Positions 4,925 through 32,667 of a DNA stretch of 32,667 bases are shown in pieces. Every line of letters starts with the position of its first letter. The first letter of the stretch is position 1. This stretch comes from an uncultured Spirochaetales bacterium. GTDB taxonomy: Bacteria > UBP6 > UBA1177. The notes under the pieces are model-generated. The model was not told where the DNA came from. It was given only the letters and a program-made list of their open reading frames with translations, and ran no database searches. The position numbers were made by a program, and so were the translations under genes. The stretch is from positions 1 through 32,667 of the forward strand of contig CACZFE010000028.1 in the NCBI GenBank assembly GCA_902780365.1. The letters are read 5' to 3'.

Positions 4925-6784
4925 ATGAAAAAAATCAATTTTGCACTGATTCTTCTTATCCTATGCATTGCTTCCTGTTCGTCCAAAAACGAAAAACCGG
5001 TTCCTTCAGAAGAAACCAAAACCGCTCCCGCCGCAGCCGCGAAAACGATCGTCGACTACACCGGGATCGAGACCTCGCATTCGGGTTATCTCCTTGAAAA
5101 CGGTTCAAAACTTTACATCGCAAGAAAGGAAAACGCAGCACAGCTTTATCTCGAATCGGCTGACGGAAAAGAGACTAAGCAGCTCACTTTTCTTGAAGAC
5201 GCGGTTGAAAGTTATGCTCTGAGTCCTGATGAATCGCAGCTCATATTCAGTGCGGCAAAAGGCGGGAACGAGCAGTATGATTTTTATCTTTACTCTTTCA
5301 AAACCGGAAAATACGAACCGCTTCTGGTCGATGATTCAATACGTTACGAAGATCCTACGTGGCTTAACGAAAACGAGATCTTATATGCCTCAAACGAAGC
5401 CAACGGAAAGGATTTTTATATCTATCACCTTGATATCGCTGCGAAAAAACGCACTCTTCTGGTTGAAAAGAAAGGCTTCAACAACATAAGCGACGCCCTT
5501 TCGAAAGACGATTTTCTTTTCTACACCTACGAAAGCAACATGAAAACCGTTCCCTACCGCTTCCAGAACGGCAAGGCGAAAAAAATGAAAACAGGCGACG
5601 AGAACAAAAAATATATCCCTATCGCCTATTTCGACGGCGGGATCCTGATGAAAACCAACGAAAAAAATGACATGGAATACCTTGAAATCGTTCTCGATTT
5701 CGCCAAAAAACCGGTTTTTGAGGGCAAATGGGGCGTTGAATCGGTCACTGTTGACTACAAAAGCCGCGATGAAGCCGTTTTCTGCACGAACGAGGAAGGT
5801 TACAGCAAGTGTTTCCACTACAAAAAAGGGGAGATCAAACCGCTTGATTTCGGCAGATCGCTTGTCGGGCTCAATTCGCTCAAAAACGGGAAGCTTGTTC
5901 TCAAAGTTTCTTCGGAAGGCGACATCCCTCAACCGCAAGTATTTGATTTAACTACAAAAACATTTCAGAAATTCGGTTATGTCAACGCAAACGGGATCGA
6001 TGTTTCGCTTTTTGCAACTCCAGAACTCAGAAAGGTGAAAAGTTTCGACGGCGAAGAGATCCCCTACTTCATCTATATTCCTAAAACAGGAAAAGCGCCA
6101 TACACTGTTCTCGTCAGCTTTCACGGCGGTCCGGAAGGTCAGTTCAGGCCCGGTTTCACCCCGCAGTTCCAGTATTTTCTTTCAAAAGGGATCGCCGTCG
6201 CGGCACCGAATGTCCGCGGCTCTTCCGGTTACGGCAAAAGATTTATGGACCTTGACAACTACAAACTCCGCATGAACGCAGTCAAAGACGGCGGCGCGAT
6301 TCTGGAAGACCTAGTGAAAAGCGGCATCGCAAAACCGAACACTTTTATTGCAACCGGCGGAAGTTACGGCGGTTTCATGACAGTCGCGTCGATGGCACAG
6401 TTCGCCGGCGACTACATCTGCGGAATCGACAATGTCGGAGTAGTCGATCTCATCAATTTCCTTGAAAACACCTCAAGTTACAGGCGGCACCTGCGTGAAG
6501 CCGAATACGGTCCCCTCACCGACCGTGAGTTTTTAGCTTCGATTTCACCCACGAACATGGTCGACAAGATCAAAGGAGAGCTTTTCGTTTTCCATGGAGC
6601 GAACGATCCGAGAGTTCCTGTAAGCGACGCCTACATTCTCATCGACAAGATGAAAAAAGCGGGCAAAAAAGTTCAGAAACACATTTTCGAAGACGAAGGA
6701 CACGGATATCGCAAAAAGGCGAACAGAGACATATACTTCCTTAAAAGTGCCGAATTCATTGAAAACTGCGTAAAGGCTAACTAA
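4925..6784 (+). CDS. S9 family serine peptidase (prolyl oligopeptidase / acylaminoacyl-peptidase type), lipoprotein
   Basis: 619 aa with lipobox LILCIASCSS and an N-terminal propeller-like region. The C-terminal alpha/beta hydrolase part carries the nucleophile elbow GGSYGG, Asp in HGANDPRV and His in DEGHGY. Confidence 0.85.
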   Translation: MKKINFALILLILCIASCSSKNEKPVPSEETKTAPAAAAKTIVDYTGIETSHSGYLLENGSKLYIARKENAAQLYLESADGKETKQLTFLEDAVESYALSPDESQLIFSAAKGGNEQYDFYLYSFKTGKYEPLLVDDSIRYEDPTWLNENEILYASNEANGKDFYIYHLDIAAKKRTLLVEKKGFNNISDALSKDDFLFYTYESNMKTVPYRFQNGKAKKMKTGDENKKYIPIAYFDGGILMKTNEKNDMEYLEIVLDFAKKPVFEGKWGVESVTVDYKSRDEAVFCTNEEGYSKCFHYKKGEIKPLDFGRSLVGLNSLKNGKLVLKVSSEGDIPQPQVFDLTTKTFQKFGYVNANGIDVSLFATPELRKVKSFDGEEIPYFIYIPKTGKAPYTVLVSFHGGPEGQFRPGFTPQFQYFLSKGIAVAAPNVRGSSGYGKRFMDLDNYKLRMNAVKDGGAILEDLVKSGIAKPNTFIATGGSYGGFMTVASMAQFAGDYICGIDNVGVVDLINFLENTSSYRRHLREAEYGPLTDREFLASISPTNMVDKIKGELFVFHGANDPRVPVSDAYILIDKMKKAGKKVQKHIFEDEGHGYRKKANRDIYFLKSAEFIENCVKAN

Positions 6785-7659
6785 TGGACAACATTAAATT
6801 TTTTCACGATTTTCTCCTGCATGAGAAACGCCGTTCCATAAAAACAGCCGATTCCTACTGTCTAGATATCGAACTTATGCAGCGTTATTTTACCGAAGTA
6901 GGCATCACTCTCGAAGAGGCCGACAAAGACGACATAAAGGACTACCTCGGAGCGATCTATTCGGAGGTCAAGGCATCATCTCTCAGGCGCAAGATCGCGG
7001 CTGTAAGACAATTCTACCTCTTTCTGCACAAACGCAAAATTATTGAAGATAATCCGACTCTTGCGCTTTCCGGCCCGAAGAAGGACGGCATTCTTCCCGG
7101 CGCCTTGACCCGCGAGGAAATGGCAAAACTGATCGAATACAACTATCCTCAGAATCTCAAAGGGCTGCGTGACCGCGCGATAATCGAAATGCTTTACAGC
7201 AGCGGAGTCCGTGTCGGAGAACTCGTTTCCATCAAAATCAAAGACATGGATTTCAAAGAAAAAACCGTTACCGTTCTGGGAAAAGGCAACAAAGAAAGGC
7301 TGCTTCCGGTAACAAGCCAGGCTATTGATTCTATTGAGAATTATCTTATGAAACGCCCTACCGGAAAAGAGAAGGATTCAATAATTTTCTGCAATTTGAA
7401 CGGCGGTCAGCTCACCGAGCGCGGAGTGCAGTTCATAATCGACACTCTTGCAAGAAACTGCGGGATCTACCGCAAAGTCACTCCCCACATGCTGCGTCAC
7501 AGCTTTGCGACCCATTTTTTGGAAAACGGCATGAATCTCAGGTACTTACAAAAACTTTTGGGACACAGCAACCTCTCCACGACCGAAATTTATACCAATT
7601 TGTCGATTGAACATATTGAAAAAGTCTACCGTAAAGCCCATCCGGGTTCGAAGAACTGA
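6784..7659 (+). CDS. tyrosine site-specific recombinase, XerC/XerD type
   Basis: 291 aa. Contains an N-terminal SAM-like domain and the catalytic motifs ...GVRVGEL..., HMLRHSFATHFL and LGHSNLSTTEIYT. The start overlaps the peptidase stop (TAATG). Confidence 0.85.
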   Translation: MDNIKFFHDFLLHEKRRSIKTADSYCLDIELMQRYFTEVGITLEEADKDDIKDYLGAIYSEVKASSLRRKIAAVRQFYLFLHKRKIIEDNPTLALSGPKKDGILPGALTREEMAKLIEYNYPQNLKGLRDRAIIEMLYSSGVRVGELVSIKIKDMDFKEKTVTVLGKGNKERLLPVTSQAIDSIENYLMKRPTGKEKDSIIFCNLNGGQLTERGVQFIIDTLARNCGIYRKVTPHMLRHSFATHFLENGMNLRYLQKLLGHSNLSTTEIYTNLSIEHIEKVYRKAHPGSKN

Positions 7660-10153: not shown

Positions 10154-10574
10154 AAGTATCTGCGGATATCCGCAGGAAGCGACAGTCGAAGTGACTTCGC
10201 AGACCGGTGCGAAAAAAATCTTTTCTGTAGGAATCGCCGAAACCGCCCGTGAGCACGAACAAGGGCTCATGTACTGCAAAAAAATGGAAAAAAATCAAGG
10301 ACTTTTCTTCATTTTCGACACCGAAAAACCCCACTTTTTCTGGATGAAAAACACATTAATAGAACTTGCAGTGATATTTGTTGACCGCGATTTCAATGTA
10401 ATAGCCGTGAGAAAAGGAGTTCCTCTCAGCAAAACGACCCTTCCCAGCGTGAAACCTTCGCAATTCGTCCTTGAAGTGAACTGGGAAGCGGGAAAATCGA
10501 TCCTTCCCGGCGACAAAATCAAGTTGAAAATGAAGTGCCCCCTCTCTATGACCTCATCCCCAGCCCTTCTCTGA
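10086..10574 (+). CDS. DUF192 family protein with signal peptide
   Basis: TTG start, 162 aa, with the DUF192-type core FFWMKNTLIELAVIFVDRDFNVIAV. It overlaps the thiL 3' end by 68 nt. The last ~10 codons lie inside repeat A. Confidence 0.65.
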   Translation: MKLLAKTALSTLILLNFFLISAESICGYPQEATVEVTSQTGAKKIFSVGIAETAREHEQGLMYCKKMEKNQGLFFIFDTEKPHFFWMKNTLIELAVIFVDRDFNVIAVRKGVPLSKTTLPSVKPSQFVLEVNWEAGKSILPGDKIKLKMKCPLSMTSSPALL

Positions 10575-10625
10575 CCTCACCTCTAACCCCTCTCCAGTGT
10601 GGCGAGGGGAACCTGCGAAGGGAGA
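10545..10625. repeat. Mosaic GC-rich hairpin repeat, copy A
   Basis: Positions 10575-10611 (CCTCACCTCTAACCCCTCTCCAGTGTGGCGAGGGGAA) match the reverse complement of 28474-28510 at 35/37. Internal hairpin is CCCCTC-N11-GAGGGG. The copy lies between the convergent DUF192 and ugd genes. Confidence 0.85.
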
Positions 10626-10629
10626 AATT

Positions 10630-11871
10630 TCAGTCTCTTCTAAAGAAATCTCTGGTGTAGACTTTGTCTTTCACATCGTCGAGAACGGTGTCGTAGCGGT
10701 TCGCGATGATCGCGTCACAGCTTTTCTTGAAGCGTTCGATGTCGTTGACGACAAGCGAGCCGAAGAAAGTCGTGCCCTCTTCCAAAGCGGGTTCATAGAC
10801 TATCACCGTCGCACCTTTCGCCTTGATGCGCTTCATTACCCCCTGGATTGAACTCTGGCGGAAGTTGTCGCTGTTGCTTTTCATCGTGAGGCGGAAAACT
10901 CCTATCGTTATCGGGCGTTCCTTCGAGGCATTCCACATCGAAGAGCCCGTGTAATATCCGGCCTTTGCGAGCACTCTGTCGGCAATGAAATCCTTTCTCG
11001 TGCGGTTGCTTTCGACTATCGCCTGGATCAGGTTTTCAGGAACGTCGGCATAGTTTGCAAGGAGCTGTTTCGTGTCTTTCGGAAGGCAGTAGCCGCCGTA
11101 TCCGAAGGAAGGGTTGTTGTACTGGTCGCCGATCCTCGGATCCAGGCAGACTCCTTTGATGATATTCGCCGTGTCGAGCCCTTTCATTTCGGCGTATGTA
11201 TCCAGTTCGTTGAAGTAACTTACACGAAGCGCGAGGTATGTATTTGCGAAAAGTTTTACCGCCTCCGCTTCCGTAAAATCCATGAAAAGCGTCGGAACAT
11301 CCTTCTTTTCGGCACCTTCTTGCAGAAGTTTTACAAAAATCTCGGCTGCATCGCGTGTTTTTTCGTCGCATCCCGCGATTATCCTGCTCGGATAAAGGTT
11401 ATCGTAAAGCGCTTTCGACTCACGCAAAAATTCCGGACTGAAAATTATGTTCTCACTCCCCTTCTTTTCGCGGATGTGTCTCGTAAAACCTACAGGGATA
11501 GTCGATTTTATCACCATTATCGCGTTTTTGTTGACGCTCATCACAAGGTCGATGACCGCTTCTACCGCGCTCGTATCGAAGAAATTCTTCTGCGGATCGT
11601 AGTTCGTCGGAGCCGCAATAATGACAAAATCAGCATCGGCATAAGCGCTTTTCCCGTCAGTCGTCGCTTTCAGACTCAGCTCCTTTTCAGCTAAATACTT
11701 CTCGATGTAGTCATCCTGGATCGGCGACTTCTTTTCATTAAGAAGTTTCACCTTTTCAGGAACAATATCGACCGCCGTTACATCGTGATGCTGAGAGAGC
11801 AGGACAGCAAGCGAAAGCCCTACATAACCGCTTCCGGCAACAGCTATTTTCAGATCTTCGAATCTGCGCAT
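10630..11871 (-). CDS. ugd: UDP-glucose 6-dehydrogenase
   Basis: ATG at 11871 lies 5 nt after GGAGG. Contains the Rossmann motif [10 protein letters not shown] and the catalytic Cys motif [11 protein letters not shown]. Confidence 0.9.
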
Positions 11872-11884
11872 GATCACCTCCGTA

Positions 11885-12017
11885 AAAACCTCACCCTTTT
11901 TATCTCCCTCTCAGTCGCTTTGCGACAGCTCCCCCAAAGTGGGAGCCAAGCTTGCCTCTCACTCAGGGAGAGGTGGCAGCCAAAGGCTGACGGAGAGGGC
12001 AAAGAGGTCAAACCGCC
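11885..12017. repeat. Mosaic GC-rich hairpin repeats, copy B (in the putative ugd 5' leader)
   Basis: Positions 11953-11981 are identical (29/29) to the reverse complement of 29852-29880. The modules CTCAG-GTCGC-TTT-GCGAC-AGCTCCCC and GGCAGCC-AAA-GGCTG..GGAGAGGGC are colinear with copy E. Confidence 0.85.
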
Positions 12018-12048
12018 GCATTATACTGATTTTTTTAGGAAATGCGAG
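12018..12048 (-). promoter_or_regulatory. 31-nt promoter-like block facing ugd, with a TATAAT -10
   Basis: The minus strand reads CTCGCATTTCCTAAAAAAATCAGTATAATGC. This matches 31703-31733 on the plus strand at 29/31. Confidence 0.35.
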
Positions 12049-12283
12049 AGGGGATTTTATAAAGCATCATAATTTTTTTCGAATATTCTATTGCTTTTTC
12101 ACAACAACAGCATATAATGCGAATCCAGAAAGAACGTCGCCGGACAATGCGAGGGTTTTTTAACCAGCATATTTGTTATGTGGTAGTCGCACCGGGGGTT
12201 CTTTCATTTTTTTCTGCACAAAATCGTGTCTTTTTCAATTCTACGGAATCAGTCATGCGGTTTAGATTGTGGTTTTAGATTAA

Positions 12284-13189
12284 TTAAAAAATCCCTTTTC
12301 CAGATATTTTTCCTAGGACCTTTATCGCCTCGTCATAAGGAACTTTTTTGAACAATAATTTCTCTGTTGTAGCGATATAATCGGCTTTATACGGCTCTTT
12401 TTCTATAATTTCCGCAAGAAGCCTGTTGATTTCCACACCATCCTGTGCAGACAGGCAGATACTACGCTGTTTTCGTTCTTCTCTGACACGATTTACGAGC
12501 TTTTTCAAAGACTCGTCCGGCTTAACAACCTCAAGCAATTTATAAATATCGTATATGTGTCTGGAATGCTGTTCGCATTTACCGTCAAGATAGTAGTCAC
12601 ACAAAGCAAAAACTTTGTCGACAAACGTCCTTTCCGGCTTTTGGACTTTTATCGGGAACGGTCGAATATCGCTCGTATCCATAAAATCCAGCGCATTCTC
12701 TTTGCTCAGATAATCAAAAATATAATTGCCAACATTTCGCGTTTCGGTGGGATATATGCCTGTAAAAACAGCGGTTTCCACAATCAGTTTGCGGTTTACA
12801 GCGGAAAAAGCAAAAACCGACGGATAACCGATCACATAACGGTTAAAATCCCTGCGGCTGCGTATCTCGTCAAAATTCTCAAGATTCAGTCCGGAAACGT
12901 TTACAGCCTCAACAATACCTTCTTTCAGTTTTCTCCTCCGCCCTTCGGAAGGTTTCTCATTTTCTTCAAATATCGACAGATCTATGTCTTCCGAAAAACG
13001 GTCTATCAAACGGTAGCATTTTGACAACGATGTTCCGCCTTTAAAAATAATGTCAGGTACCAGTGAAGCTATGCTTCTAAGCAGCAGAGTAACATAGTAA
13101 TCCTTTTCTATAATCGCGGAGTCTATGCCGTATTCCGCAGAAACTCTGAGAAGAATATCCTCAAAAATATCACGATTTTCATGCAACAC
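12284..13189 (-). CDS. AbiEii/AbiGii-family nucleotidyltransferase toxin (type IV TA / abortive infection)
   Basis: 301 aa with the DUF1814-type motif FKGGTSLSKCYRLIDRFSEDIDLS. It is paired with an upstream AbiEi-like gene. Confidence 0.8.
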   Translation of the reverse strand: MLHENRDIFEDILLRVSAEYGIDSAIIEKDYYVTLLLRSIASLVPDIIFKGGTSLSKCYRLIDRFSEDIDLSIFEENEKPSEGRRRKLKEGIVEAVNVSGLNLENFDEIRSRRDFNRYVIGYPSVFAFSAVNRKLIVETAVFTGIYPTETRNVGNYIFDYLSKENALDFMDTSDIRPFPIKVQKPERTFVDKVFALCDYYLDGKCEQHSRHIYDIYKLLEVVKPDESLKKLVNRVREERKQRSICLSAQDGVEINRLLAEIIEKEPYKADYIATTEKLLFKKVPYDEAIKVLGKISGKGIF

Positions 13190-13796
13190 TGTATATCACC
13201 TCGCTCACAATAAGGTTTCGCATAGCCTTGTCCGGGAAAAACCGGCTGTATTCCGTAATCATGTTCCGGGTAATCCCCTTTTCTTTTATGAACCGGCAGA
13301 CCGTTTTTTTTCTTTCGTCATCAAAAAACTCTGCCGATGTGAAGTTCATCAGTTCCAGAAGTTGCATAACATCGGAATTTTCTTTTGTGATTTTCGTTCT
13401 GGAACGCCTCAGGATCACTTTCTGGGAATTGACAGAAATCTCCCTCAATTTTGTCTTCTCATTGTTGGTATAAATTTCAATGCTGTTAGGCATCTGAGTC
13501 GAGAGATTCATCAGGTTGAGCAGCGTATTTCCCGAATAATATCCAATAGTATCATTCCCGTCAGATATATATTTTTTCAGAATGACTTTTCTCGGATCAA
13601 GAAGAGTTTTCCCTAAAAAAGTCGTCTTCGGAATATAACAGACACCTTTGTCATATCTGACAATCTGCCCGTTTTTGCAAAGACGGCTCAATTCCTTGAA
13701 TATCCATGGTCTGGAATAATCCTCGAACTGGATATCACTCGTAAAAATCGGCTCGTTATAACCATATTTTTTCAACAAAAACTCATATAAACCCAT
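13179..13796 (-). CDS. AbiEi-family antitoxin / transcriptional regulator
   Basis: ATG at 13796 lies 7 nt after GGAGG. The N-terminal wHTH-like segment is ...IFKELSRLCKNGQIVRYDKGVCYIP. It overlaps the toxin gene by 11 nt. Confidence 0.75.
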   Translation of the reverse strand: MGLYEFLLKKYGYNEPIFTSDIQFEDYSRPWIFKELSRLCKNGQIVRYDKGVCYIPKTTFLGKTLLDPRKVILKKYISDGNDTIGYYSGNTLLNLMNLSTQMPNSIEIYTNNEKTKLREISVNSQKVILRRSRTKITKENSDVMQLLELMNFTSAEFFDDERKKTVCRFIKEKGITRNMITEYSRFFPDKAMRNLIVSEVIYSVA

Positions 13797-13893
13797 GGTG
13801 CGACCTCCATTTTCCACATTTTATATCATATCATACCTTGTAAGTCAATAAAAATATAATTTGCGGAGATTTAGGTGAAAAACGCATCCGTAG

Positions 13894-26833: not shown

Positions 26834-27690
26834 GAATCCTTACTTTTGACATAGAAGAGTGGTTTCATCTTTTGGATAACCCATCAACCAAAACAGAAAA
26901 TGAATGGGAAAAATACGAGGTAAGAATTTATCAAAATGTTGACAAAATTCTTGAAATCATTGAAAAAACCGACACTAAAGCAACGTTTTTCATCATAGGC
27001 TGGATTGCAAAAAAATATCCGGACATCGTAAAGCGTATTTCCGAAAAATATGAAATCGGATCACATACCTGCTACCATCAGTTGGTTTGGCAACAGAATC
27101 AAAAAGAATTCAAAGAAGATTTGTCAGCTTCAATCAAACTTTTGCAAGATATTTCCGGCAAACCGGTAAAATATTTCAGGGCTCCCGGATTTTCAATCAG
27201 AACAAGCGAATTGTGGGCATTTGAAGTGATAAAAGAATGCGGAATAGAAATAGACTGCTCGATCTTCCCTGCACATCATGCCCACGGAGGGATCCCACTT
27301 TTCCCAAAACCATATCCTTCAATAATTCAATACAAAGGAATCAAACTGAAAGAATTTCCATGTGTATTTAAAAATATCGGAAAACACCACATTGTTTTCT
27401 CTGGTGGAGGATATTTCAGAATTATTCCTTATTGGCTGCTCAAAAAATGGACGTCAAAATGTAACGAATATCTTCTTTCCTATATTCACCCAAGAGATCT
27501 GGATGCAACCCAACCAATGATTAAGGATTTGCCTTTAAAAAGGAAATTCCGCTCCTATATCGGCATAAAAAATGCAGCGAACAAATTGGAAAAATGGCTC
27601 ACAGACTTTGATTTCACAGATATTGAAACGGCCGACAAATCTTTTGACTGGAACAAAGCTCAGATCGTTAATTTTGATCAGATAAAATAA
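26830..27690 (+). CDS. polysaccharide deacetylase family protein (DUF3473-type)
   Basis: 286 aa with an N-terminal ILTFDIEEWFH, plus ATFFIIGW and SHTCYH metal-site-like motifs. ATGA overlap with the preceding gene. Confidence 0.7.
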   Translation: MRILTFDIEEWFHLLDNPSTKTENEWEKYEVRIYQNVDKILEIIEKTDTKATFFIIGWIAKKYPDIVKRISEKYEIGSHTCYHQLVWQQNQKEFKEDLSASIKLLQDISGKPVKYFRAPGFSIRTSELWAFEVIKECGIEIDCSIFPAHHAHGGIPLFPKPYPSIIQYKGIKLKEFPCVFKNIGKHHIVFSGGGYFRIIPYWLLKKWTSKCNEYLLSYIHPRDLDATQPMIKDLPLKRKFRSYIGIKNAANKLEKWLTDFDFTDIETADKSFDWNKAQIVNFDQIK

Positions 27691-28562
27691 GCATTTATTG
27701 AAAAAGATTTTTGGGCTGGAAGTCGCTTCAAATTCCAATACTTCTTCACCCCTCTCGCCGTATACCAGCACATGAAATATGCTGCTTCAAACAGGTTCAA
27801 ACCGACATGGCGGTAAGTTTTCCATGTTCTGAATGCAGCTTTCATCTTGTTTCTCGTCATCGAGTTCGTAGACAAACGGTACGAGAGCAGAGGTTCATCC
27901 AACCCGATGATTTTACACCCTGATTTAGCCATTTTTAGCCACATCGCAAAATCACTGCTTATATCATCACCGATGACATAGAACTGCTCGTAAAGCTCCT
28001 TTTTCACAAGAACAGACGAGTTGGAAATAATATCCTGCTTCAAAAGCTCGCGGTATGAAATGGTGCATGGAACATGAAGCTGCCAGTTTATGTGATTTCC
28101 GTCGTTGTCGATGAATGCGGAACCGGTGAAAACAAGGTCGGCATTCTCTTTTTCGGCGAGAGCGAACTGCTTTTCAAGTTTGCAACTGTCCCAGATATCG
28201 TCGCTGTCAAGCACCGCGATCCACTCGCCTTTCGCAGCTTCAAGAGCTTTTTTGCGGGTGAGGGAGACACCGAGATTGCTCTCGTTACTGATAACACGGA
28301 TGCGCGGATCGGATTTCGCGAAAGAATCAGCAATTTCCAAGGTGTTGTCTTTCGAACAATCGTTCACCACAATCAGTTCCCAATCGGTATATGTCTGCGC
28401 CAGTACGGAACGGATCGCCGCTGCGATTTTAGACCCCTCGCCTTTTGGAGACGTTTCATGAAACGTCTCTACATTCCCCTCGCCACACTGGAGAGGGGTC
28501 AGGGGTGAGGTTCCCGCATTGTATGCCGCCATGATTATGGTGATCAATGGTCTAGTCATCAT
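27678..28562 (-). CDS. glycosyltransferase family 2 carrying an in-frame repeat-element insertion near the N-terminus
   Basis: Shows GT-A features: IIMAAYNA, LIVVNDCSKDN and AVLDSDDIW (DxD). TSPLTPLQCGEGNVETFHETSPKGEG is intercalated between AAYNAG and SKIAAAIRSVLAQTY. Confidence 0.8.
   Translation of the reverse strand: MMTRPLITIIMAAYNAGTSPLTPLQCGEGNVETFHETSPKGEGSKIAAAIRSVLAQTYTDWELIVVNDCSKDNTLEIADSFAKSDPRIRVISNESNLGVSLTRKKALEAAKGEWIAVLDSDDIWDSCKLEKQFALAEKENADLVFTGSAFIDNDGNHINWQLHVPCTISYRELLKQDIISNSSVLVKKELYEQFYVIGDDISSDFAMWLKMAKSGCKIIGLDEPLLSYRLSTNSMTRNKMKAAFRTWKTYRHVGLNLFEAAYFMCWYTARGVKKYWNLKRLPAQKSFSINAYFI
28434..28511. repeat. Mosaic hairpin repeat, copy C, inside the GT2 CDS
   Basis: Three parts. 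28474-28510 is the reverse complement of the copy A core (35/37). 28448-28469 is the perfect 22-nt palindrome GAGACGTTTCATGAAACGTCTC. 28434-28446 (CCCCTCGCCTTTT) is identical to 29780-29792. Confidence 0.85.
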
Positions 28563-28568
28563 TACTTC

Positions 28569-29525
28569 TCAACACTTTCCATCCGAATACCCTTGATAAG
28601 CTGATTTCAGAATCTTCTCAAATCGGATTCTGATTCCCTGCTTATAATATTCCTTCCTGACTGCACTGCAAATCGGAATCCCTTCATAGGATTCAGGAAC
28701 ATCATCAATCAGTTTATATATATCCTGAAGATGGTTTTCTATCAGCGGAACATTTCTTTTTACAGCATCCCGCAAACCCGGGCAATCCATCATAATAAGT
28801 TTTGGACCGCTGAGAATATGACCATCTACTTCATAAGCCGTTACTGAAGCCCCCAGAACATCTCTCTCCAACTTATCTTTTTGCATATGCATTACTATTT
28901 GTTCATCCGATGTTTTATTGGAAAAAGCGTTCCCGTTATCATACACAGGAGCTATTTTGTAAATTTCCCCATTGAAAACCAACCCCCAGTTGCCGTTATT
29001 CCGATCATTGTTATCGATAAGAATATCAACAACCACCATGTCCCAAAAATGTTCCTTCAAGCCTTCGACATTTTTGAGATGACGATTCTCTTCCAAATGA
29101 AACAAAAGCTCCGGCAGATTTACTCTGTCACCTGATTTTGATTCAGCAAAACCCTCAAGTTCTTCTGTCCGTTCTTCACTATACGCATTTTTTATTGTGC
29201 GTATTTCAGACAATCCTCCGCGAATTACGCAAAAATCCTTGCAGGCAACAACTACTTTGCCTTTCTTTATGCCAAGCAGCGTCTTGTGGACATCGTAGCC
29301 CAGAATCTCGTAGACATGACTCCCGAGATATTCCGACAGCGGTGCGGTCGTATAGGAAATATTACGAGCATTATTCCTCATTCCTCGAGTAGTCTTAGGA
29401 TACTTTATAAACCAAAACTCCCCGTCAATCAGTATACCGTCTTTGTTTCCGCCATTACCACCGTATATTCCGTCACGGTTGCTGAGAGGAAAAAGTTTTT
29501 CGTCATCAAAATTGTATATCTGCAT
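28569..29525 (-). CDS. HipA-family (HipA_C-like) Ser/Thr kinase, putative toxin
   Basis: I chose the ATG at 29525; the track ORF begins at an upstream GTG. 318 aa with the G-rich loop YGGNGGNKDG, the catalytic-loop-like ILIDNNDRNNGNWGLVF, and KIAPVYDNGNAF matching the HipA AP-x-YD motif. Confidence 0.6.
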   Translation of the reverse strand: MQIYNFDDEKLFPLSNRDGIYGGNGGNKDGILIDGEFWFIKYPKTTRGMRNNARNISYTTAPLSEYLGSHVYEILGYDVHKTLLGIKKGKVVVACKDFCVIRGGLSEIRTIKNAYSEERTEELEGFAESKSGDRVNLPELLFHLEENRHLKNVEGLKEHFWDMVVVDILIDNNDRNNGNWGLVFNGEIYKIAPVYDNGNAFSNKTSDEQIVMHMQKDKLERDVLGASVTAYEVDGHILSGPKLIMMDCPGLRDAVKRNVPLIENHLQDIYKLIDDVPESYEGIPICSAVRKEYYKQGIRIRFEKILKSAYQGYSDGKC

Positions 29526-29527
29526 TT

Positions 29528-29761
29528 TTACCACTCCGGGTATCTGGAGACAATAATATCCCACTGTTTTTGATTCATATGCCCACTGGCTACAGATGCT
29601 TTGCACAACATATCTACGGCTCTTGCCATACCGAAATACTGCGGATCGCCTTCCCGATCATATCTTTCGCAGTCTTCGATTGTATTTCTAAGCACTTCGC
29701 CATGAATAGGGAATTCGATTTTTACATCATCATTGATCCAACGGTATTGCACTGATCTCAT
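29528..29761 (-). CDS. 77-aa protein of unknown family, candidate cognate antitoxin/partner of the kinase
   Basis: AAGGAG lies 6 nt upstream of the ATG at 29761. Its stop TAA (29528-29530) is 2 nt from the kinase ATG. No HTH is recognisable. Confidence 0.5.
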   Translation of the reverse strand: MRSVQYRWINDDVKIEFPIHGEVLRNTIEDCERYDREGDPQYFGMARAVDMLCKASVASGHMNQKQWDIIVSRYPEW

Positions 29762-29980
29762 TTACATCTCCTTTCTATTCCCCTCGCCTTTTGAAGACAT
29801 TTGACCCCTCAGACAACCTGCGGTTGCCGTATAGCCCTCTCCGGCAGCCCCGGCTGCCACCTCTCCCTGAGTGAGAGGCAGGGAAAGACTTGGCCCGCCC
29901 TTCTCAGCTCCTACTTCAGGGGAGCCTATAGAGGTGCCCGCATTGTATGCCGCCATAATTATAGTGATAGTCGGTGTCAT
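29762..29980 (-). pseudogene. Orphan GT2 5' stub fused to repeat copy D
   Basis: Encodes MTPTITIIMAAYNAGTS, close to the N-terminus of the intact GT2 (ITIIMAAYNAGTS), followed only by repeat-derived sequence. It ends with TAA directly before the 77-aa gene ATG. Its start overlaps the upstream gene stop (ATGA). Confidence 0.6.
29778..29935. repeat. Mosaic GC-rich hairpin repeats, copy D
   Basis: 29852-29880 is the reverse complement of 11953-11981 (29/29). 29803-29828 is the reverse complement of 31673-31698 (24/26, both mismatches in the hairpin loop). 29780-29792 is identical to 28434-28446. Confidence 0.85.
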
Positions 29981-31446
29981 TTTTCAACCACCTCCCAATG
30001 ACCGCCTTTGTCTGGACCGATACGGCGGATAAGATTTTCTTTTTGCATTTCGCTCAACATCTTTTTGACAGTCGTATGACCTAATCCCAGTTCTTCTTCC
30101 AATTTTACTATTGTGATAAAACTATCGTTTTTAATGGCGGCAAGTATTTGGCGGATTTTTTCTGGCCACTTTTCTGGCCACTTTTCTGGCCATTTTTCTA
30201 TTTTCTGGTCACTTTCTGTACCCTTTTCATTTCCCTGTATATTTCCTTCCTCTCCGGCATTCAATTCAAAAGGTGCGGCATCTATCTTGTTGAACGGAAT
30301 TGTGACTACGATAAAATTCTTTTTGACAGCGATTGTATCGCGTCCGTATGCCTTGACGATCGTTGGAACACCGCGCCCTGAACGCTCGCTAAGCCTGAGC
30401 TGAAGGAAAATCGAGGCAAGTGCTTCGTTTACGGGAATGCTGACTCCATTATAAAAACCTTCTAGATCCTGTTCGATTCCAAGCCCGCCGTGGGAGACGA
30501 TTTCTATTCTGTCGGTGAACACGCTTATCATCGGGGCATTCATGGCAAGCCATTTGTTGTGAATGAAAGCATTCAAAAGTGCTTCGTGGAAAGCCTCGTA
30601 ATCAAAAAGAGGAACATCTTTGCGTTCCGAAATACGCCCGCGTTCGTCAGCCTGAATGATGTTTATAGCGTCGCCGTATTCCAGTATTTTATCCATGGAA
30701 TACAAAATGCAGGAATTTCCGTATTCTTTCACGGAAAAAAGAGTGTCAGCCTTGGTTTTTCCGCTGAAAACAGAAACGCGGATCGGAATATCATTTGAAT
30801 CGGCAAGCAGGAGTGCCATTATGTTGTAGCGGCCGTCTGCTGTCAGCAGTTTGAGCGTTTTCTTAAAGGTGTCACGTCTGAGTCTGATCCCTTTTGCACC
30901 GTAATACAAAAAGAGTTTCTCGAAAGTCAGATCCTGCGCATAATCAGGTGAGGCAGTGTTCACGATAGTAGGAATTCCGTTTGAAAGCACGTTCAGCAGA
31001 CGGATTTCCCACTCCGGAAATTTTGAAATCTTTTCCTTGCTTGAACCTATCCGGATAAACGTCTGGTTCATGAACTTTGTCGGAACGGATTTCGCGGCAG
31101 GAACAGTCAGCAAAACAATTCTTTTGCCGGAAATTTCAGCTTCATCGACTTCAAACGCAAGACTCGGCTTTAAGTGGCGTGCAAGGTAATGTTTGTAAGG
31201 TTCGTGCTCGATATCCTTGTCGAAATTAACCGTTGTTCCGGTAATTTCATGCGTTTTGTCACTCACACCCCAGACAATATAGCCGTATTCCCGCCCGCTC
31301 AAAGCCGCGCCGTTGGAAATCGCGGAAATATATTCACCGATTTCGTCCTTTGAAAACCAGTTCTCTTTGAAATCGAGCCATTCGTATTCGTGCGGAAGCA
31401 AAATCAGGTTCGTGACAGTGTCAATTATGTTGAGGGCGGGTGTCAT
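29977..31446 (-). CDS. AlbA_2 (Schlafen-like) / HATPase_c_4-like / C-terminal wHTH protein, of the class often annotated as RecG-like transcriptional regulator
   Basis: 489 aa. N-terminal HEYEWLDFKENW...AISNGAALSGREYGYIVWGV. Middle FHEALLNAFIHNKWLAMNAPMISVFTDRIEIVSHGGL. C-terminal ITIVKLEEELGLGHTTVKKMLSEMQKENLIRRIG. AAGGAG RBS is present. Confidence 0.8.
   Translation of the reverse strand: MTPALNIIDTVTNLILLPHEYEWLDFKENWFSKDEIGEYISAISNGAALSGREYGYIVWGVSDKTHEITGTTVNFDKDIEHEPYKHYLARHLKPSLAFEVDEAEISGKRIVLLTVPAAKSVPTKFMNQTFIRIGSSKEKISKFPEWEIRLLNVLSNGIPTIVNTASPDYAQDLTFEKLFLYYGAKGIRLRRDTFKKTLKLLTADGRYNIMALLLADSNDIPIRVSVFSGKTKADTLFSVKEYGNSCILYSMDKILEYGDAINIIQADERGRISERKDVPLFDYEAFHEALLNAFIHNKWLAMNAPMISVFTDRIEIVSHGGLGIEQDLEGFYNGVSIPVNEALASIFLQLRLSERSGRGVPTIVKAYGRDTIAVKKNFIVVTIPFNKIDAAPFELNAGEEGNIQGNEKGTESDQKIEKWPEKWPEKWPEKIRQILAAIKNDSFITIVKLEEELGLGHTTVKKMLSEMQKENLIRRIGPDKGGHWEVVEK
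30158..30193. repeat. 12-nt tandem repeat x3 (TTTTCTGGCCAC), coding (EKWP)3
   Basis: Units at 30158-30169, 30170-30181 and 30182-30193 (last base differs), followed by a degenerate copy. It lies in the linker before the wHTH. Confidence 0.9.
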
Positions 31447-31462
31447 TTATTTATCTCCTTCT

Positions 31463-31484
31463 GAGACGCATCAGGTTACGTCTC
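31463..31484. repeat. GAGACG-N10-CGTCTC hairpin module immediately upstream of the AlbA_2-gene RBS
   Basis: GAGACGCATCAGGTTACGTCTC. Related to 13894-13915 (reverse complement) and to the palindrome at 28448-28469. Confidence 0.7.
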
Positions 31485-31547
31485 TACAAAAAAACGCATC
31501 TCGCGCGTGAAACATATTGAAATTAGTGAAAAAGTCAACAAATACAA

Positions 31548-31702
31548 ACCCCTCCGTCACTGCGTGACACCTCCCAGACCCCTCAGCCGCTTTGCGGCAG
31601 CTCCCCTACCTCAGGGGAGCCTTGACGGGGAGGCAAGAATCGGTAGAAAGGCGCCCCTAAATTAGGGGAGCTGGCAACCAAAGGTTGTCTGAGGGGTCTC
31701 TT
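31548..31702. repeat. Mosaic GC-rich hairpin repeats, copy E
   Basis: Contains the hairpins GTCAC-TGC-GTGAC, GCCGC-TTT-GCGGC, GCTCCCCT-ACCTC-AGGGGAGC, GCGCCCCT-AAATT-AGGGGAGC and GGCAACC-AAA-GGTTGTC+TGAGGGGTC. Module order is colinear with copy B. Confidence 0.85.
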
Positions 31703-31733
31703 CTCGCATTTCCAAAAAAATTCAGTATAATGC
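31703..31733 (+). promoter_or_regulatory. 31-nt promoter-like block facing the capE/fnlA-like gene, with TATAAT at 31726-31731
   Basis: CTCGCATTTCCAAAAAAATTCAGTATAATGC. It matches the minus strand of 12018-12048 at 29/31 and lies 43 nt upstream of the ATG at 31774. Confidence 0.4.
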
Positions 31734-31773
31734 ACCGTTTTTGTTGATGTTCACTTTTTAAACGAGGTTGAAG

Positions 31774-32667
31774 ATGACTGAATTTAACGGCGCGACGCTG
31801 ATGATCACGGGCGGAACGGGCTCGTTCGGAAATACCGTTCTCAAACATTTCCTCACTTCCGATATCGCTCAGATCCGAATTTTCTCGCGTGACGAGAAGA
31901 AGCAGGACGATATGCGCCACGACTTGCAGGCGAAATATCCCGATTATGCTAAAAAAGTTAAATTTTATGTCGGCGATGTCCGTGATCCGCGTTCTCTGGC
32001 TGACGCGATGCCGGGTGTCGACTATATTTTCCACGCAGCCGCATTGAAACAGGTCCCCTCTTGCGAATTCTTCCCGATGCAGGCGGTAAAAACCAATGTT
32101 GAAGGGACCGACAACATGCTTCACGCTGCAATAAATGCGGGTGTAAAGAGAGTCGTCTGCCTCAGCACTGACAAAGCCGCTTATCCGATAAACGCGATGG
32201 GGATAAGCAAGGCGATGATGGAACACGTCATCTATGCGAACGCGAGAGTCGCTGCAGAGCGTGGCGGAACTGTTATCTGCTGCACCCGTTACGGCAACGT
32301 AATGTGCAGCCGCGGTTCGGTAATCCCGCTTTTCATCGACCAGATCCACGCCGGAAATCCGATAACGATAACAGACCCGAACATGACGCGTTTCCTGATG
32401 AACCTTGACGAGGCGGTAGAACTTGTCAGATTCGCTTTCGGGCACGCAAATCCGGGCGATCTCTTCATCCAGAAAGCAGACGCTTCGACGATCGGAGACC
32501 TGGCAAAGGCTGTGCAGAAACTTTTCGGCGACACCGGAACCAACATCATCGGCACAAGGCATGGCGAAAAACTTTACGAAACCCTTATGACAAGAGAGGA
32601 AAGGCTCCGTTCCGAAGATATGGGAAAATACTTCAGAGTCGCAGCCGACAACCGCGACCTCAACTAC
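31774..32667 (+). CDS. UDP-N-acetylglucosamine 4,6-dehydratase/5-epimerase (CapE/FnlA/WbjB family), 3'-truncated by the window edge
   Basis: Not in the ORF track because it has no stop in the window. GAGG RBS is present. My own translation gives MTEFNGATLMITGGTGSFGNTVLKHFL...IRIFSRDEKKQDDM...HAAALKQVPSCEFFP...CLSTDKAAYPINAMGISKAMME...TRYGNVMCSRGSVIPLFIDQI...TDPNMTRFLM...GTRHGEKLYETLMTREE...RDLNY. These are hallmark CapE/FnlA strings. Confidence 0.9.
   Translation, partial: MTEFNGATLMITGGTGSFGNTVLKHFLTSDIAQIRIFSRDEKKQDDMRHDLQAKYPDYAKKVKFYVGDVRDPRSLADAMPGVDYIFHAAALKQVPSCEFFPMQAVKTNVEGTDNMLHAAINAGVKRVVCLSTDKAAYPINAMGISKAMMEHVIYANARVAAERGGTVICCTRYGNVMCSRGSVIPLFIDQIHAGNPITITDPNMTRFLMNLDEAVELVRFAFGHANPGDLFIQKADASTIGDLAKAVQKLFGDTGTNIIGTRHGEKLYETLMTREERLRSEDMGKYFRVAADNRDLNY

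What the first reader, a model, noticed from the sequence alone, without database searches (positions are those of the whole stretch)
28431..29980. Duplicated GT2 5' end with recombination junctions exactly at repeat modules flanking the kinase cargo
Reading the minus strand, the order is as follows. The AlbA_2 gene stop overlaps (ATGA) the start of a 72-codon stub encoding MTPTITIIMAAYNAGTS. About 158 nt of repeat copy D follows. Next comes TAA-ATG into the 77-aa gene, then the kinase. Six nucleotides later the intact GT2 starts, encoding ..ITIIMAAYNAGTS plus repeat copy C. The two GT2 5' segments match over about 38 nt with 4 mismatches. Both switch into repeat sequence at the same codon, after GCGGG(A/C)ACCTC. 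Both repeats end with the same AAAAGGCGAGGGG, after which the sequences diverge into either the GT2 body or the RBS of the 77-aa gene. This looks like a repeat-mediated insertion or allelic exchange that brought in about 1.4 kb of cargo. The repeats may act as recombination hot spots or docking sites. The stop/start overlaps chain AlbA_2, stub, 77-aa gene, kinase and GT2 into one tightly coupled transcription unit.
Basis: seen in the sequence. Interest (0 to 1): 0.68.

Follow-up and report, generated by a model that had tools for sequence, protein, structure and literature searches.

The report
Kinase cassette between duplicated glycosyltransferase starts
In an uncultured rumen bacterium, a two-gene kinase cassette sits between a truncated and an intact copy of a glycosyltransferase gene's start, each followed by small nested palindromic repeats, and related strains suggest that recombination at these short sequences moves such cassettes around a sugar-coat gene cluster.

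Summary

**Layout (minus strand).**
- The AlbA_2 gene (29977-31446) overlaps, by ATGA, a 72-codon stub. The stub is the first 15 codons of a TuaG-like GT2 plus a 156-nt palindromic array D (29780-29935).
- TAA-ATG leads into a 77-aa gene, then a CtkA/HipA-like kinase.
- Six nt later an intact GT2 starts. It carries a 78-nt in-frame array C (28434-28511) at the same codon.
- The two GT2 5' ends share 35/38 nt. Both arrays end in TCTYCAAAAGGCGAGGGG. No such match is expected by chance.

**Evidence from related rumen contigs.**
- The block D-77aa-kinase-GT2 5' also sits in front of a different gene.
- Versions without the block exist for both genetic backgrounds.
- One strain is identical to the window up to the last 3 nt of array C and 5-33% divergent beyond it.
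- A more distant locus has GT2 directly behind the same leader.
- AlbA_2's own first codons are a captured GT2 start.
- Array D looks like a hybrid of a 5' in-frame array and a GT2 3'-tail array.

**Best reading.** Short-homology recombination between the repeats and conserved glycosyltransferase 5' ends shuffles cassettes that carry no mobility genes, leaving stubs. Similar leader-flanked cassettes recur in four other loci. The mechanism is inferred, not shown.

The parts
31774..32667 (+). FnlA-like UDP-GlcNAc 4,6-dehydratase/5-epimerase gene. It is divergent from AlbA_2, runs off the window, and belongs to the polysaccharide locus.
   Evidence: NCBIfam TIGR04130 FnlA, E=1.5e-133; translation.
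31447..31773 (-). Intergenic leader. It holds a nested palindromic array (31555-31700), then the hairpin GTAGAGACGTAACCTGATGCGTCTC (31463-31487), then the RBS GGAGATAAATAA.
   Evidence: The array folds at -78.2 kcal/mol, z=-5.3. The leader is 86.6% identical to the leader in front of GT2 in L025.
31423..31446 (-). First 8 codons of AlbA_2 (MTPALNII). This is a third, partial copy of the GT2 start. Its last 9 nt (AACATAATT) are microhomology shared with the native AlbA_2 N-terminus.
   Evidence: 22 of 24 nt match the GT2 start of L025. AlbA_2 homologs P0156-P0158 and L043 begin M(I/T)..IDTVTN without the MTPAL prefix.
29977..31446 (-). AlbA_2 / HATPase_c_4 / winged-helix protein (489 aa). It is an accessory gene at the head of the operon.
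   Evidence: Pfam PF04326 1e-19, PF13749 6.9e-12, PF13412 8.7e-5. Absent from the homologous position in L025.
29936..29980 (-). GT2 5' end, type a (15 codons, MTPTITIIMAAYNAG). It is the start of the 72-codon stub ORF (29762-29980). Its ATG overlaps the AlbA_2 stop.
   Evidence: It is the same 5' type as the intact GT2 of L023/L024 (P0001).
29780..29935 (-). Array D: 156 nt (52 codons) of nested palindromic modules, open only in the GT2 reading frame.
   Evidence: Module positions. The first ~33 nt match the in-frame array of L023; the distal 45 nt match the 3'-tail array of the L025 GT2, read in the same frame. The stub ORF reads through all of D in the GT2 frame. The frame listing, offset 6 nt (29929-29774), shows stops in the other two frames.
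29762..29779 (-). RBS module of the 77-aa gene (AATAGAAAGGAGATGTAA). It is the left end of the cassette shared with other loci.
   Evidence: Homology to the cassette in L027/L028 starts at 29774.
29528..29761 (-). 77-aa gene of unknown family. It is always found directly upstream of the kinase and is a putative partner or antitoxin.
   Evidence: No Pfam, PADLOC, NCBIfam or PDB match. It is adjacent to the kinase in every context seen.
28569..29525 (-). CtkA/HipA-superfamily kinase (318 aa).
   Evidence: PDB 3AKJ CtkA, E=5.2e-30. PADLOC PDC-M03A, E=8.7e-19. Pfam HipA_C 21.4 bits, below the 30.5-bit cut-off.
28512..28562 (-). GT2 5' end, type b (17 codons, MMTRPLITIIMAAYNAG), 6 nt after the kinase stop. 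It travels with the cassette.
   Evidence: The same TGAgaagtaATGATGACT junction follows the kinase in L033-L037, L002 and L007.
28434..28511 (-). Array C: a 78-nt (26-codon) in-frame insertion in GT2, between strand beta1 and helix alpha1.
   Evidence: Canonical homologs lack it. Pfam GT2 resumes at residue 42, profile position 9. Residues 20-42 have pLDDT below 50 between beta1 (7-13) and alpha1 (45-54). It is open only in the GT2 frame.
27678..28433 (-). GT2 body (TuaG-like), apparently functional.
   Evidence: NCBIfam TuaG 1.6e-60. pN/pS is 0.13-0.25 against L023, L024, L007 and L025. Mosaic breakpoints lie at 28434-28437 (against L007) and near 28017 (against L024).

Best explanation
**What it is.** This is a mosaic junction at the head of a polysaccharide-biosynthesis operon of an uncultured rumen bacterium, possibly a Treponema.

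**Shown.**
- Small nested palindromic repeats have colonised the locus. One array sits in frame in the tolerant beta1-alpha1 loop of a TuaG-like GT2.
- A two-gene cassette with no mobility genes (77-aa gene plus CtkA/HipA-like kinase), together with the 5' end of the GT2 that natively follows it, is present in some strains and absent in others, in two different genetic backgrounds.
- Block boundaries coincide with the conserved GT2 5' segment and with array ends.

**Inferred.** The window's arrangement arose by homologous or homeologous recombination using very short homology patches.
- On the left, a hairpin module is shared by the in-frame 5' array of the resident GT2 and by an intercistronic (GT2 3'-tail) array that preceded the cassette in the donor.
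- On the right, the patch is the GT2 body or the end of array C.
- This joined resident GT2 5' + hybrid array D + RBS-77aa-kinase + donor GT2 5' + array C + GT2 body.
- The resident 5' end was left as a 72-codon stub. The stub still starts on the AlbA_2 stop and ends on the 77-aa start.

Later transfers of the block between backgrounds need only AlbA_2 on the left and the ~33-nt GT2 core, or an array end, on the right.

The same logic, cargo flanked by direct repeats of the leader or 5' stub of the displaced gene, explains AlbA_2's captured GT2 start and similar structures in four other loci.
For: **Presence/absence in two backgrounds.**
- L038 is AlbA_2-GT2 stub-GT4. L002 is AlbA_2 3' end-stub+D-77aa-kinase-GT2 5'b stub-the same GT4.
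- L023/L024 is AlbA_2-75aa-GT2, with the body 95-98% identical to the window from 28435. The window has the block in addition.

**Breakpoints.**
- L007 has 0 mismatches to the window from 28910 to 28437. The first mismatch is at 28436; identity then falls to 67-97% per 60-nt block.
- L024 has 19 mismatches in 28407-28017, then 1 in the following ~770 nt.

**Hybrid array D.** Its first ~33 nt match the 5' in-frame array of L023. Its distal 45 nt match the 3'-tail array of the L025 GT2, in the same reading frame, and are followed by the same type of RBS module.

**Cassette in other contexts.** At 87% nt identity it sits behind other genes. Homology starts exactly at the D/RBS boundary (29774) in L027/L028. 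In L033-L037 it is followed by the same gaagtaATGATGACT GT2 start.

**No mobility gene.** There is no integrase or transposase among the genes between 27678 and 31446.

**Recurrence of leader-flanked cargo.**
- L043: 92-125 nt repeated 3 times (95% and 66%) around AlbA_2 and YhcG.
- L026: 133 nt at 97% around YhcG.
- L033: 93 nt at 88%.
- L027: 35 nt repeated 3 times.

**AlbA_2's captured start.**

**GT2 kept under purifying selection despite the insert.** pN/pS is 0.13-0.25. The insert is a low-confidence loop in the model.
Against: - No donor configuration (a full-length GT2 with a 3'-tail array directly upstream of the 77-aa gene) was found.
- The shared modules that would have served as the left homology are only ~25-33 nt and imperfect, short for RecA-dependent exchange.
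- The direction of the event (import versus deletion from a larger ancestor) cannot be told from the contigs at hand.
- L002 and L007 are short metagenome contigs. The L002 junction runs through a conserved core. A private SNP links both sides, but a chimeric path is not strictly excluded.
- The species has no genome in the GTDB representative set. Genome-wide repeat copy number, any repeat-associated transposase and natural competence are therefore unknown.
Confidence: 0.58

Rival explanations
1. Ordinary decay in cis. The ancestor carried two full-length GT2 genes with the kinase cassette between them (AlbA_2-GT2a-77aa-kinase-GT2b). Recombination between the in-frame 5' array of GT2a and the array at its own 3' tail deleted the GT2a body in frame and left the stub. 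Nothing was imported.
For: - Array D combines a 5'-array start with a 3'-tail-array end in the same frame as the C-terminal tail of P0002.
- D is a multiple of 3 and open only in the GT2 frame.
- Deletion between direct repeats is the commonest outcome for dispersed repeats (established knowledge).
Against: - In L023/L024 the GT2 combines the stub-type 5' end with a body 95-98% identical to the window's second GT2. This needs a further deletion hybrid whose array does not match C.
- The same D-cassette-5'b block (99.8% identical) is followed by a different gene in L002, and that background exists without the block in L038. At least one inter-background exchange is therefore needed anyway.
- No contig with a full-length GT2 upstream of the 77-aa gene was found.
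Confidence: 0.25
2. Dedicated site-specific or transposase-driven cassette system. The palindromic arrays, or the leader segments, act as att-like or attC-like sites. An enzyme encoded elsewhere recognises them (a REP-associated tyrosine transposase, an IS200/IS605-type TnpA, or a tyrosine recombinase such as the XerC/D-like gene at 6784-7659). It inserts leader-flanked cassettes at gene 5' ends.
For: - Cargo flanked by direct repeats of a leader recurs in four further loci, with different leaders and different cargo.
- Hairpin modules sit at many cassette boundaries, directly before the RBS.
- A tyrosine recombinase gene lies in the window.
Against: - Breakpoints are not at one fixed nucleotide. 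GT2 stubs end after codon 13/14, 15-17 or 27, and GT4 stubs after codon 11, 29 or 64.
- Some junctions have no repeat at all (L038, L002, L027 stub 2).
- No motif common to the different leaders was seen.
- The recombinase is 22 kb away, looks like an ordinary XerC/D, and is not linked to the cassette in other loci.
Confidence: 0.1
3. Metagenome assembly artefact. The duplication results from collapsing or chimerically joining two strains at a shared repeat.
For: The region contains repeats shared between co-occurring strains, and all sequences come from short-read assemblies.
Against: Each junction of the window's arrangement is reproduced at 99.8-100% identity in independent samples and assemblers: ERZ27280324, SRR094926, SRR094437, ERR3224605 and ERZ28614274.
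Confidence: 0.03

Closest known systems
Rickettsia palindromic elements (RPEs) and other intragenic MITE-like repeats
   Same: Short palindromic repeats are inserted in frame into protein-coding genes that stay open and apparently functional (review PMC10969869). Here, in-frame arrays of 60 and 78 nt occur in intact GT2 alleles, and further in-frame inserts occur in homologs P0016 and P0023.
   Different: - The units here are much smaller (about 20-45 nt hairpins) and nested or modular.
- The array at one codon differs between strains (five variants).
- No target-site duplication or terminal inverted repeats of a classical MITE were seen.
- There is no Rfam match.
- The lineage is different.
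REP/BIME mosaic elements of enterobacteria and BOX elements of pneumococcus
   Same: They are modular mosaics of short hairpins dispersed in intercistronic regions of operons. They are known substrates of ectopic recombination (own knowledge; MITEs as recombination hot spots, PMC10969869).
   Different: Here the modules also lie inside reading frames and directly in front of ribosome-binding sites. Association with a RAYT-type transposase could not be examined.
Minimal mobile elements of Neisseria (cassettes exchanged by homologous recombination between conserved flanks)
   Same: Cassettes without mobility genes occupy a fixed site between conserved neighbours. Alternative contents occur in different strains, and mosaic identity patterns are typical of homologous recombination (PMC3787668).
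   Different: One homology arm here is only a ~33-50-nt gene 5' end or a repeat module. Exchange therefore leaves duplicated 5' stubs, and cassettes stack up in series.
Integron gene-cassette arrays
   Same: Promoterless accessory genes are stacked between a promoter and resident genes, with imperfect palindromes at many cassette boundaries.
   Different: There is no IntI and no attI/attC. Boundaries are imprecise. The duplicated unit is the leader of the displaced gene.
HipA-superfamily kinase modules (HipBA, HipBST), H. pylori CtkA, and PADLOC candidate system PDC-M03
   Same: The kinase matches CtkA (E=5.2e-30) and PDC-M03A (E=8.7e-19). It is preceded by a small gene, as in toxin-antitoxin pairs. 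In one strain the kinase is internally deleted while the small gene is intact.
   Different: Pfam HipA_C scores below its threshold. The 77-aa partner has no HTH and no HipB, HipS or PDC-M03B match. Toxicity and defence are untested.

Membership tests
Dispersed palindromic repeats (REP/BIME/MITE-like) | Short units repeated at several places, each able to form a hairpin | tested here: met
   Six arrays lie in 32.7 kb. Each module is present 2-3 times at 92-100% identity. Nested folds reach z=-5.3. The same modules occur in unrelated loci and in a viral contig.
Dispersed palindromic repeats (REP/BIME/MITE-like) | Terminal inverted repeats with a target-site duplication (classical MITE) | tested here: not met
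   Comparison of GT2 with and without the array shows a clean 78-nt (or 60-nt) insertion with no duplicated flank.
Dispersed palindromic repeats (REP/BIME/MITE-like) | Cognate transposase in the genome (RAYT or IS200/IS605 TnpA) | not testable with these tools
   Only a 32.7-kb contig is available, and the species is absent from the genome collection.
RPE-like in-frame repeat insertion | The repeat lies inside a coding gene, its length is a multiple of 3, it has no stop in the host frame, and the host gene is conserved | tested here: met
   Arrays of 78, 60 and 156 nt, open only in the GT2 frame. pN/pS of the GT2 body is 0.13-0.25. The insert lies in a predicted loop.
HipBA-type toxin-antitoxin module | Kinase passes the Pfam HipA_C threshold; an HTH antitoxin (HipB) lies upstream | tested here: not met
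   HipA_C scores 21.4 bits against a 30.5-bit cut-off. The 77-aa protein has no family match. Homology to CtkA and PDC-M03A places the kinase in the wider superfamily only.
PADLOC candidate defence system PDC-M03 | Component A plus its partner component | tested here: inconclusive
   Component A matched at E=8.7e-19. No PADLOC model matched the 77-aa gene.
Integron | IntI integrase with attI next to the array; attC at each cassette end | tested here: not met
   The only tyrosine recombinase is an XerC/D-like gene 22 kb away. Cassette boundaries are not uniform.
Integrase-borne genomic island with att direct repeats | Integrase inside the element, precise att core | tested here: not met
   The block contains only the 77-aa gene and the kinase. 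The direct repeats are 92% identical, with different arrays behind them.
Homologous-recombination cassette site (minimal-mobile-element type) | Alternative contents between conserved flanks, no mobility genes, mosaic identity breakpoints | tested here: met
   Alternative contents in L023, L025, L038 and L002 compared with the window. A sharp identity break at 28436 and another near 28017.

The most novel reading that the evidence does not exclude
Accessory defence and toxin-type genes in these rumen bacteria may move as 'leader cassettes'. Each cargo gene would travel with a copy of the leader (RBS, start and first codons, often with a palindromic array) of the gene it displaced. It could excise as a circle by recombination between its two flanking leaders. 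It could then re-insert at any operon gene with a similar start, regenerating the duplication and keeping translational coupling. This would be an integron-like cassette economy running on short-homology recombination, or on an as yet unidentified enzyme that acts at the hairpins.
Probability: 0.15. Interest if true: 0.8.

Novelty: new variant of a known kind. Interest (0 to 1): 0.5.

Why it matters
- Very short sequences (a ~33-nt conserved gene start and 20-45-nt hairpin modules) appear sufficient to move toxin or defence-type cassettes in and out of surface-polysaccharide operons of uncultured gut bacteria, with no mobility gene.
- These events leave recognisable scars: 5' stubs that keep ribosomes flowing into the cargo.
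- It adds an example outside Rickettsia of palindromic repeats living in frame inside an enzyme, here in the loop next to the nucleotide-binding motif of a GT-A glycosyltransferase.
- For annotation, such stubs and repeat-derived peptide stretches should not be called as genes or as domain novelties.

Tried and rejected
- **Genome scan.** A scan of 185,579 species genomes with the 20-mer ATGGCGGCATACAATGCGGG gave 14 hits. Thirteen were chance coding convergence (MAAYNAG in lytic transglycosylases, Lon and others). One (L012) was a glycosyltransferase start in an unrelated Planctomycetota genome.
- **JGI metagenome scan.** A degenerate 26-mer gave a single contig, L045. It was useful but small.
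- **Viral contigs.** No relative of the kinase was found, so there is no sign that a phage carries the cassette.
- **Rfam.** No family matches the arrays.
- **The 77-aa protein.** Pfam, PADLOC, NCBIfam and PDB sequence searches found nothing.
- **Literature.** Searches for PDC-M03, for CtkA with HipA, for nested small repeats and for rumen Treponema repeats gave nothing specific.
- **A 5-nt GGAAC duplication at the L002 junction.** I considered it a target-site duplication and rejected this. L038 shows the same junction with a diverged sequence, so the two are homologous.
- **Stub ORFs ending on the next start.** I considered this a universal rule. It holds (gap of 0-4 nt, or overlap) in 7 of the 11 stubs that have a called downstream gene, not in all.
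- **Canonical GT2 operon.** P0004 in L047 shows no cargo genes and its GT2 has no in-frame insert, which serves as a baseline.
Full report
**1. What is in the window**

Reading the minus strand from 31446, the order is as follows.
- AlbA_2 gene, 29977-31446, 489 aa. Pfam finds SLFN_AlbA_2, HATPase_c_4 and a winged helix.
- A 72-codon stub, 29762-29980. Its ATG overlaps the AlbA_2 stop as ATGA.
- A 77-aa gene, 29528-29761. Its ATG directly follows the stub's TAA.
- A 318-aa kinase, 28569-29525, starting 2 nt later.
- A 294-aa GT2, 27678-28562, starting 6 nt after the kinase stop.

On the other side of AlbA_2 lies a 327-nt repeat-rich leader and a divergent FnlA-like gene. The whole set is therefore embedded in a polysaccharide-biosynthesis locus that runs from about 13989 past the window's end.

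The kinase is a relative of H. pylori CtkA (PDB 3AKJ, E=5.2e-30). It also matches the PADLOC candidate component PDC-M03A (E=8.7e-19). Pfam HipA_C is below threshold. The 77-aa protein matches nothing.

**2. The duplicated GT2 start and the two arrays**

The segments 28507-28544 and 29931-29968 match at 35 of 38 positions. The 18-mer TCTYCAAAAGGCGAGGGG occurs only at 28434-28451 and 29780-29797. Neither match appears in any shuffle.

An alignment with homologs shows that canonical TuaG-like GT2 proteins are about 252 aa. They have nothing between AAYNA(G/E)xT and the following helix. The window's GT2 carries 26 extra residues there.
- In nucleotides, array C is 28434-28511 (78 nt) and array D is 29780-29935 (156 nt).
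- Both are multiples of three and open only in the GT2 frame. The other two frames have stops.
The copy at 10574-10611 includes it, as do copies in L033 and in a viral contig.

C and D differ internally. They share only the ACCTC start and the terminal module.

An AlphaFold model places residues 20-42 in a low-confidence loop between beta1 (7-13) and alpha1 (45-54). The GT2 body is under purifying selection against four relatives, with pN/pS 0.13-0.25. The insert-bearing enzyme is probably functional.

**3. What the repeats are**

The window holds six arrays built from a handful of 20-45-nt hairpin modules. Each module is present two or three times.
- The array at 31555-31700 folds into a nested set of hairpins at -78 kcal/mol (z=-5.3).
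- Array C folds as an outer stem (ACCTC.../...GAGGGG) enclosing two hairpins (z=-2.5). Array D shows no excess stability (z=-0.1).
- There is no Rfam match.

In related loci the same modules sit in three kinds of place.
- Directly in front of ribosome-binding sites. The GTAGAGACG..CGTCTC hairpin precedes GT2 in L025, AlbA_2 here, an ATPase in L027 and YhcG in L026.
- At gene 3' tails (L025).
- In frame within GT2 homologs at other positions (P0016, P0023).

Functionally they resemble REP/BIME or BOX mosaics. In their in-frame habit they resemble Rickettsia palindromic elements (PMC10969869).

**4. Comparative evidence**

Exact-protein look-ups retrieved related rumen contigs.

*L025.* This is a more distant locus with 88% identity in the GT2 body. 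It has the same leader (86.6% identity over 119 nt), hairpin and RBS, directly followed by GT2. There is no AlbA_2, no cassette and no 5' array. An array forms the GT2 C-terminal tail and leads into the next gene.

The leader homology runs 24 nt into AlbA_2's reading frame (22 of 24 nt). Other AlbA_2 homologs start M(I/T)..IDTVTN without the MTPAL prefix. AlbA_2 was therefore itself joined to a GT2 start, at an A(A/C)CATAATT microhomology.

*L023/L024.* This is the same locus at 95-98% identity. AlbA_2 is followed by a 75-aa MqsA-like gene, then a single intact GT2. That GT2 has the stub-type 5' end, a different 60-nt in-frame array, and a body that aligns to the window from 28435 onward.

*L038.* The AlbA_2 stop overlaps a 20-codon GT2 stub, followed by a GT4 gene.

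*L002.* The order is the 3' end of AlbA_2 (the contig begins inside the gene), stub, D, 77aa, kinase, GT2 5'b, and then that same GT4, with a homologous junction and no array C.

*L007.* It carries the 77aa gene, the kinase with a 598-nt internal deletion, GT2 5'b and array C. All of this is identical to the window down to 28437. The first mismatch is at 28436. Identity then falls to 67-97% per 60-nt block.

*L045* (JGI). A winged-helix gene's stop overlaps yet another GT2 stub, with a fifth array variant at the same codon.

The block D-77aa-kinase-5'b is thus present or absent in two backgrounds. Its right boundary is either the GT2 core or the end of array C.

**5. Origin of the stub**

Array D starts like the in-frame array of L023 (ACCTCTATAGGCTCYCCTGA..GGAGCTG). 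It ends like the 3'-tail array of the L025 GT2 (GGCAACCGCAGGTYGTCTGAGGGGTCAAA...). That end is read in the same frame as the P0002 tail and is followed by the same kind of RBS module. Both of those arrays contain the hairpin AGGCTCC.CTGAA..AGGGGAGCTG.

The simplest account is recombination within that module. One partner is a GT2 5' array. The other is an intercistronic array that preceded the 77-aa gene.

If the partner was on incoming DNA, with the right-hand crossover in the GT2 body, this is an import. I prefer this reading, because the block demonstrably occurs in different backgrounds and next to GT2 bodies of different ancestry.

If the partner was the 3' tail of the same gene, this is an in-frame internal deletion of a former first GT2. 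That is the main rival.

Either way the junction is repeat-mediated. The stub is a by-product, not a gene.

**6. The cassette elsewhere, and a general pattern**

The 77aa-kinase pair occurs in other polysaccharide loci at 87% nt identity, with the kinase protein at least 90% identical.
- It sits behind a MqsA-like gene (L026, L033-L037).
- It sits behind a GT4 5' stub whose ATG overlaps the stop of a winged-helix gene (L027/L028).
- It lies among other accessory genes: DUF3791/DUF3990, YhcG nuclease, a PDDEXK_9 ATPase, and RES and P4-cII-like genes.

In L027/L028 the homology to the window begins at 29774, exactly the D/RBS boundary. In L033-L037 the kinase is followed by the same gaagtaATGATGACT GT2 start. 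There the GT2 is cut after codon 27 by an array.

Direct repeats made of a leader or 5' stub flank cargo genes repeatedly.
- L043: 92-125 nt repeated 3 times around AlbA_2 and YhcG.
- L026: 133 nt at 97% around YhcG.
- L033: 93 nt at 88% around a RES-containing block.
- L027: 35 nt repeated 3 times.

In 7 of the 11 stubs that have a called downstream gene, the stub ORF ends 0-4 nt before the next ATG or overlaps it. This is consistent with retained translational coupling, but it is not universal.

Stub lengths vary from codon 11 to codon 64, and some junctions lack repeats. This argues against a precise site-specific enzyme.

A canonical homolog (P0004, in L047) sits in an ordinary operon with no cargo genes, and its protein has no in-frame insert.

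**7. Organism**

All related sequences come from ruminant gut metagenomes.
- A partial AlbA_2 homolog (P0167, 372 aa) that is 89% identical over 75% of the query is annotated Treponema sp. (MBR0494785.1).
- A member of the XerC-like cluster (at least 90% identical) is annotated only as 'bacterium'.
- A FadL-type outer-membrane protein in the window fits a diderm.

The assignment to Treponema is tentative, because AlbA_2 is mobile.

**8. Verdict**

- This is a repeat- and leader-mediated recombination junction with real cargo polymorphism.
- The conserved GT2 start is as important as the repeats.
- The shared entry codon reflects one old, diversifying in-frame array.
- The direction and enzymology of the founding event remain inferred.

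The kinds of process involved are known: ectopic recombination at dispersed repeats, in-frame palindromic repeats, and exchange of cassettes that carry no mobility genes. I am not aware of a description of the recurrent architecture of leader-flanked cassettes at gene 5' ends in polysaccharide loci.

Noticed in passing
window 12129-12209 (+): DUF3800-VII RNA motif (Rfam RF02967, 60.1 bits against a 36.2-bit threshold). It lies next to an AbiEi/AbiEii pair at 12284-13817 (-).
   Followed up: no
window 12010-12054 and 31697-31741: A 45-nt inverted repeat (84%) that is the same promoter-like sequence (TTTCC..AAAAAAAT.CAGTATAATG). One copy faces outward toward Ugd (10630-11877, -) and the other toward FnlA (31774->, +). 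Together they bracket the 19.6-kb polysaccharide segment.
   Followed up: partly
window 29958-29987 (-): A near-consensus sigma-70-like site, TTGAAA-18-TATAAT (11 of 12). It is formed by the AlbA_2 3' end and stub codons 7-8. It could give the cassette its own promoter. This is a consensus match only.
   Followed up: no
window 30160-30195 (AlbA_2 linker): 12-nt tandem repeats encode KWPEKWPEKWPEK between the ATPase-like and winged-helix domains. Homologs carry different 12-nt tandem repeats at the same place (P0155-P0160, L027, L043).
   Followed up: partly
L007 247-606 (compare window 29507-28911): In one strain the kinase has a 598-nt internal deletion while the 77-aa gene is intact and 100% identical. 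This is the decay pattern expected if the kinase is a dispensable or toxic partner.
   Followed up: partly
L026 10956-11133; L027 7294-7580: After the kinase lie 89-nt tandem repeats containing AAATGAGTAAATTACGAGAAGAAA. They look like degenerate copies of a gene start (MSKL..). Their origin and role are unknown.
   Followed up: no
L043 309-429, 1912-2033, 3257-3348 (GCA_002309575.1): A leader of 92-125 nt with a 31-36-codon ORF, ending on or near the next ATG, is repeated three times around AlbA_2 and YhcG (95% and 66% identity). This is the clearest case of leader-flanked cargo.
   Followed up: partly
L046 1735-1780 (IMGVR_UViG_2061766007_004171): A single basic repeat unit (GACCTCACCCCAACCCCTCTCCAGTGTGGCGAGGGGATTTGAGGT) lies between two genes of a rumen viral contig. 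The repeat family is therefore shared with a phage or prophage.
   Followed up: no
window 10540-10625 and 11880-12005: Two further arrays flank the Ugd gene. One lies between convergent genes. The other lies in the Ugd 5' leader, right up to its RBS, and folds at -57 kcal/mol (z=-2.6).
   Followed up: partly
P0016, P0023, P0002 (alignment A1): Other GT2 homologs carry repeat-derived peptide inserts at different positions (after SVQ, about 60 residues in P0016) or as a C-terminal tail. In-frame colonisation of this enzyme family is therefore recurrent.
   Followed up: partly
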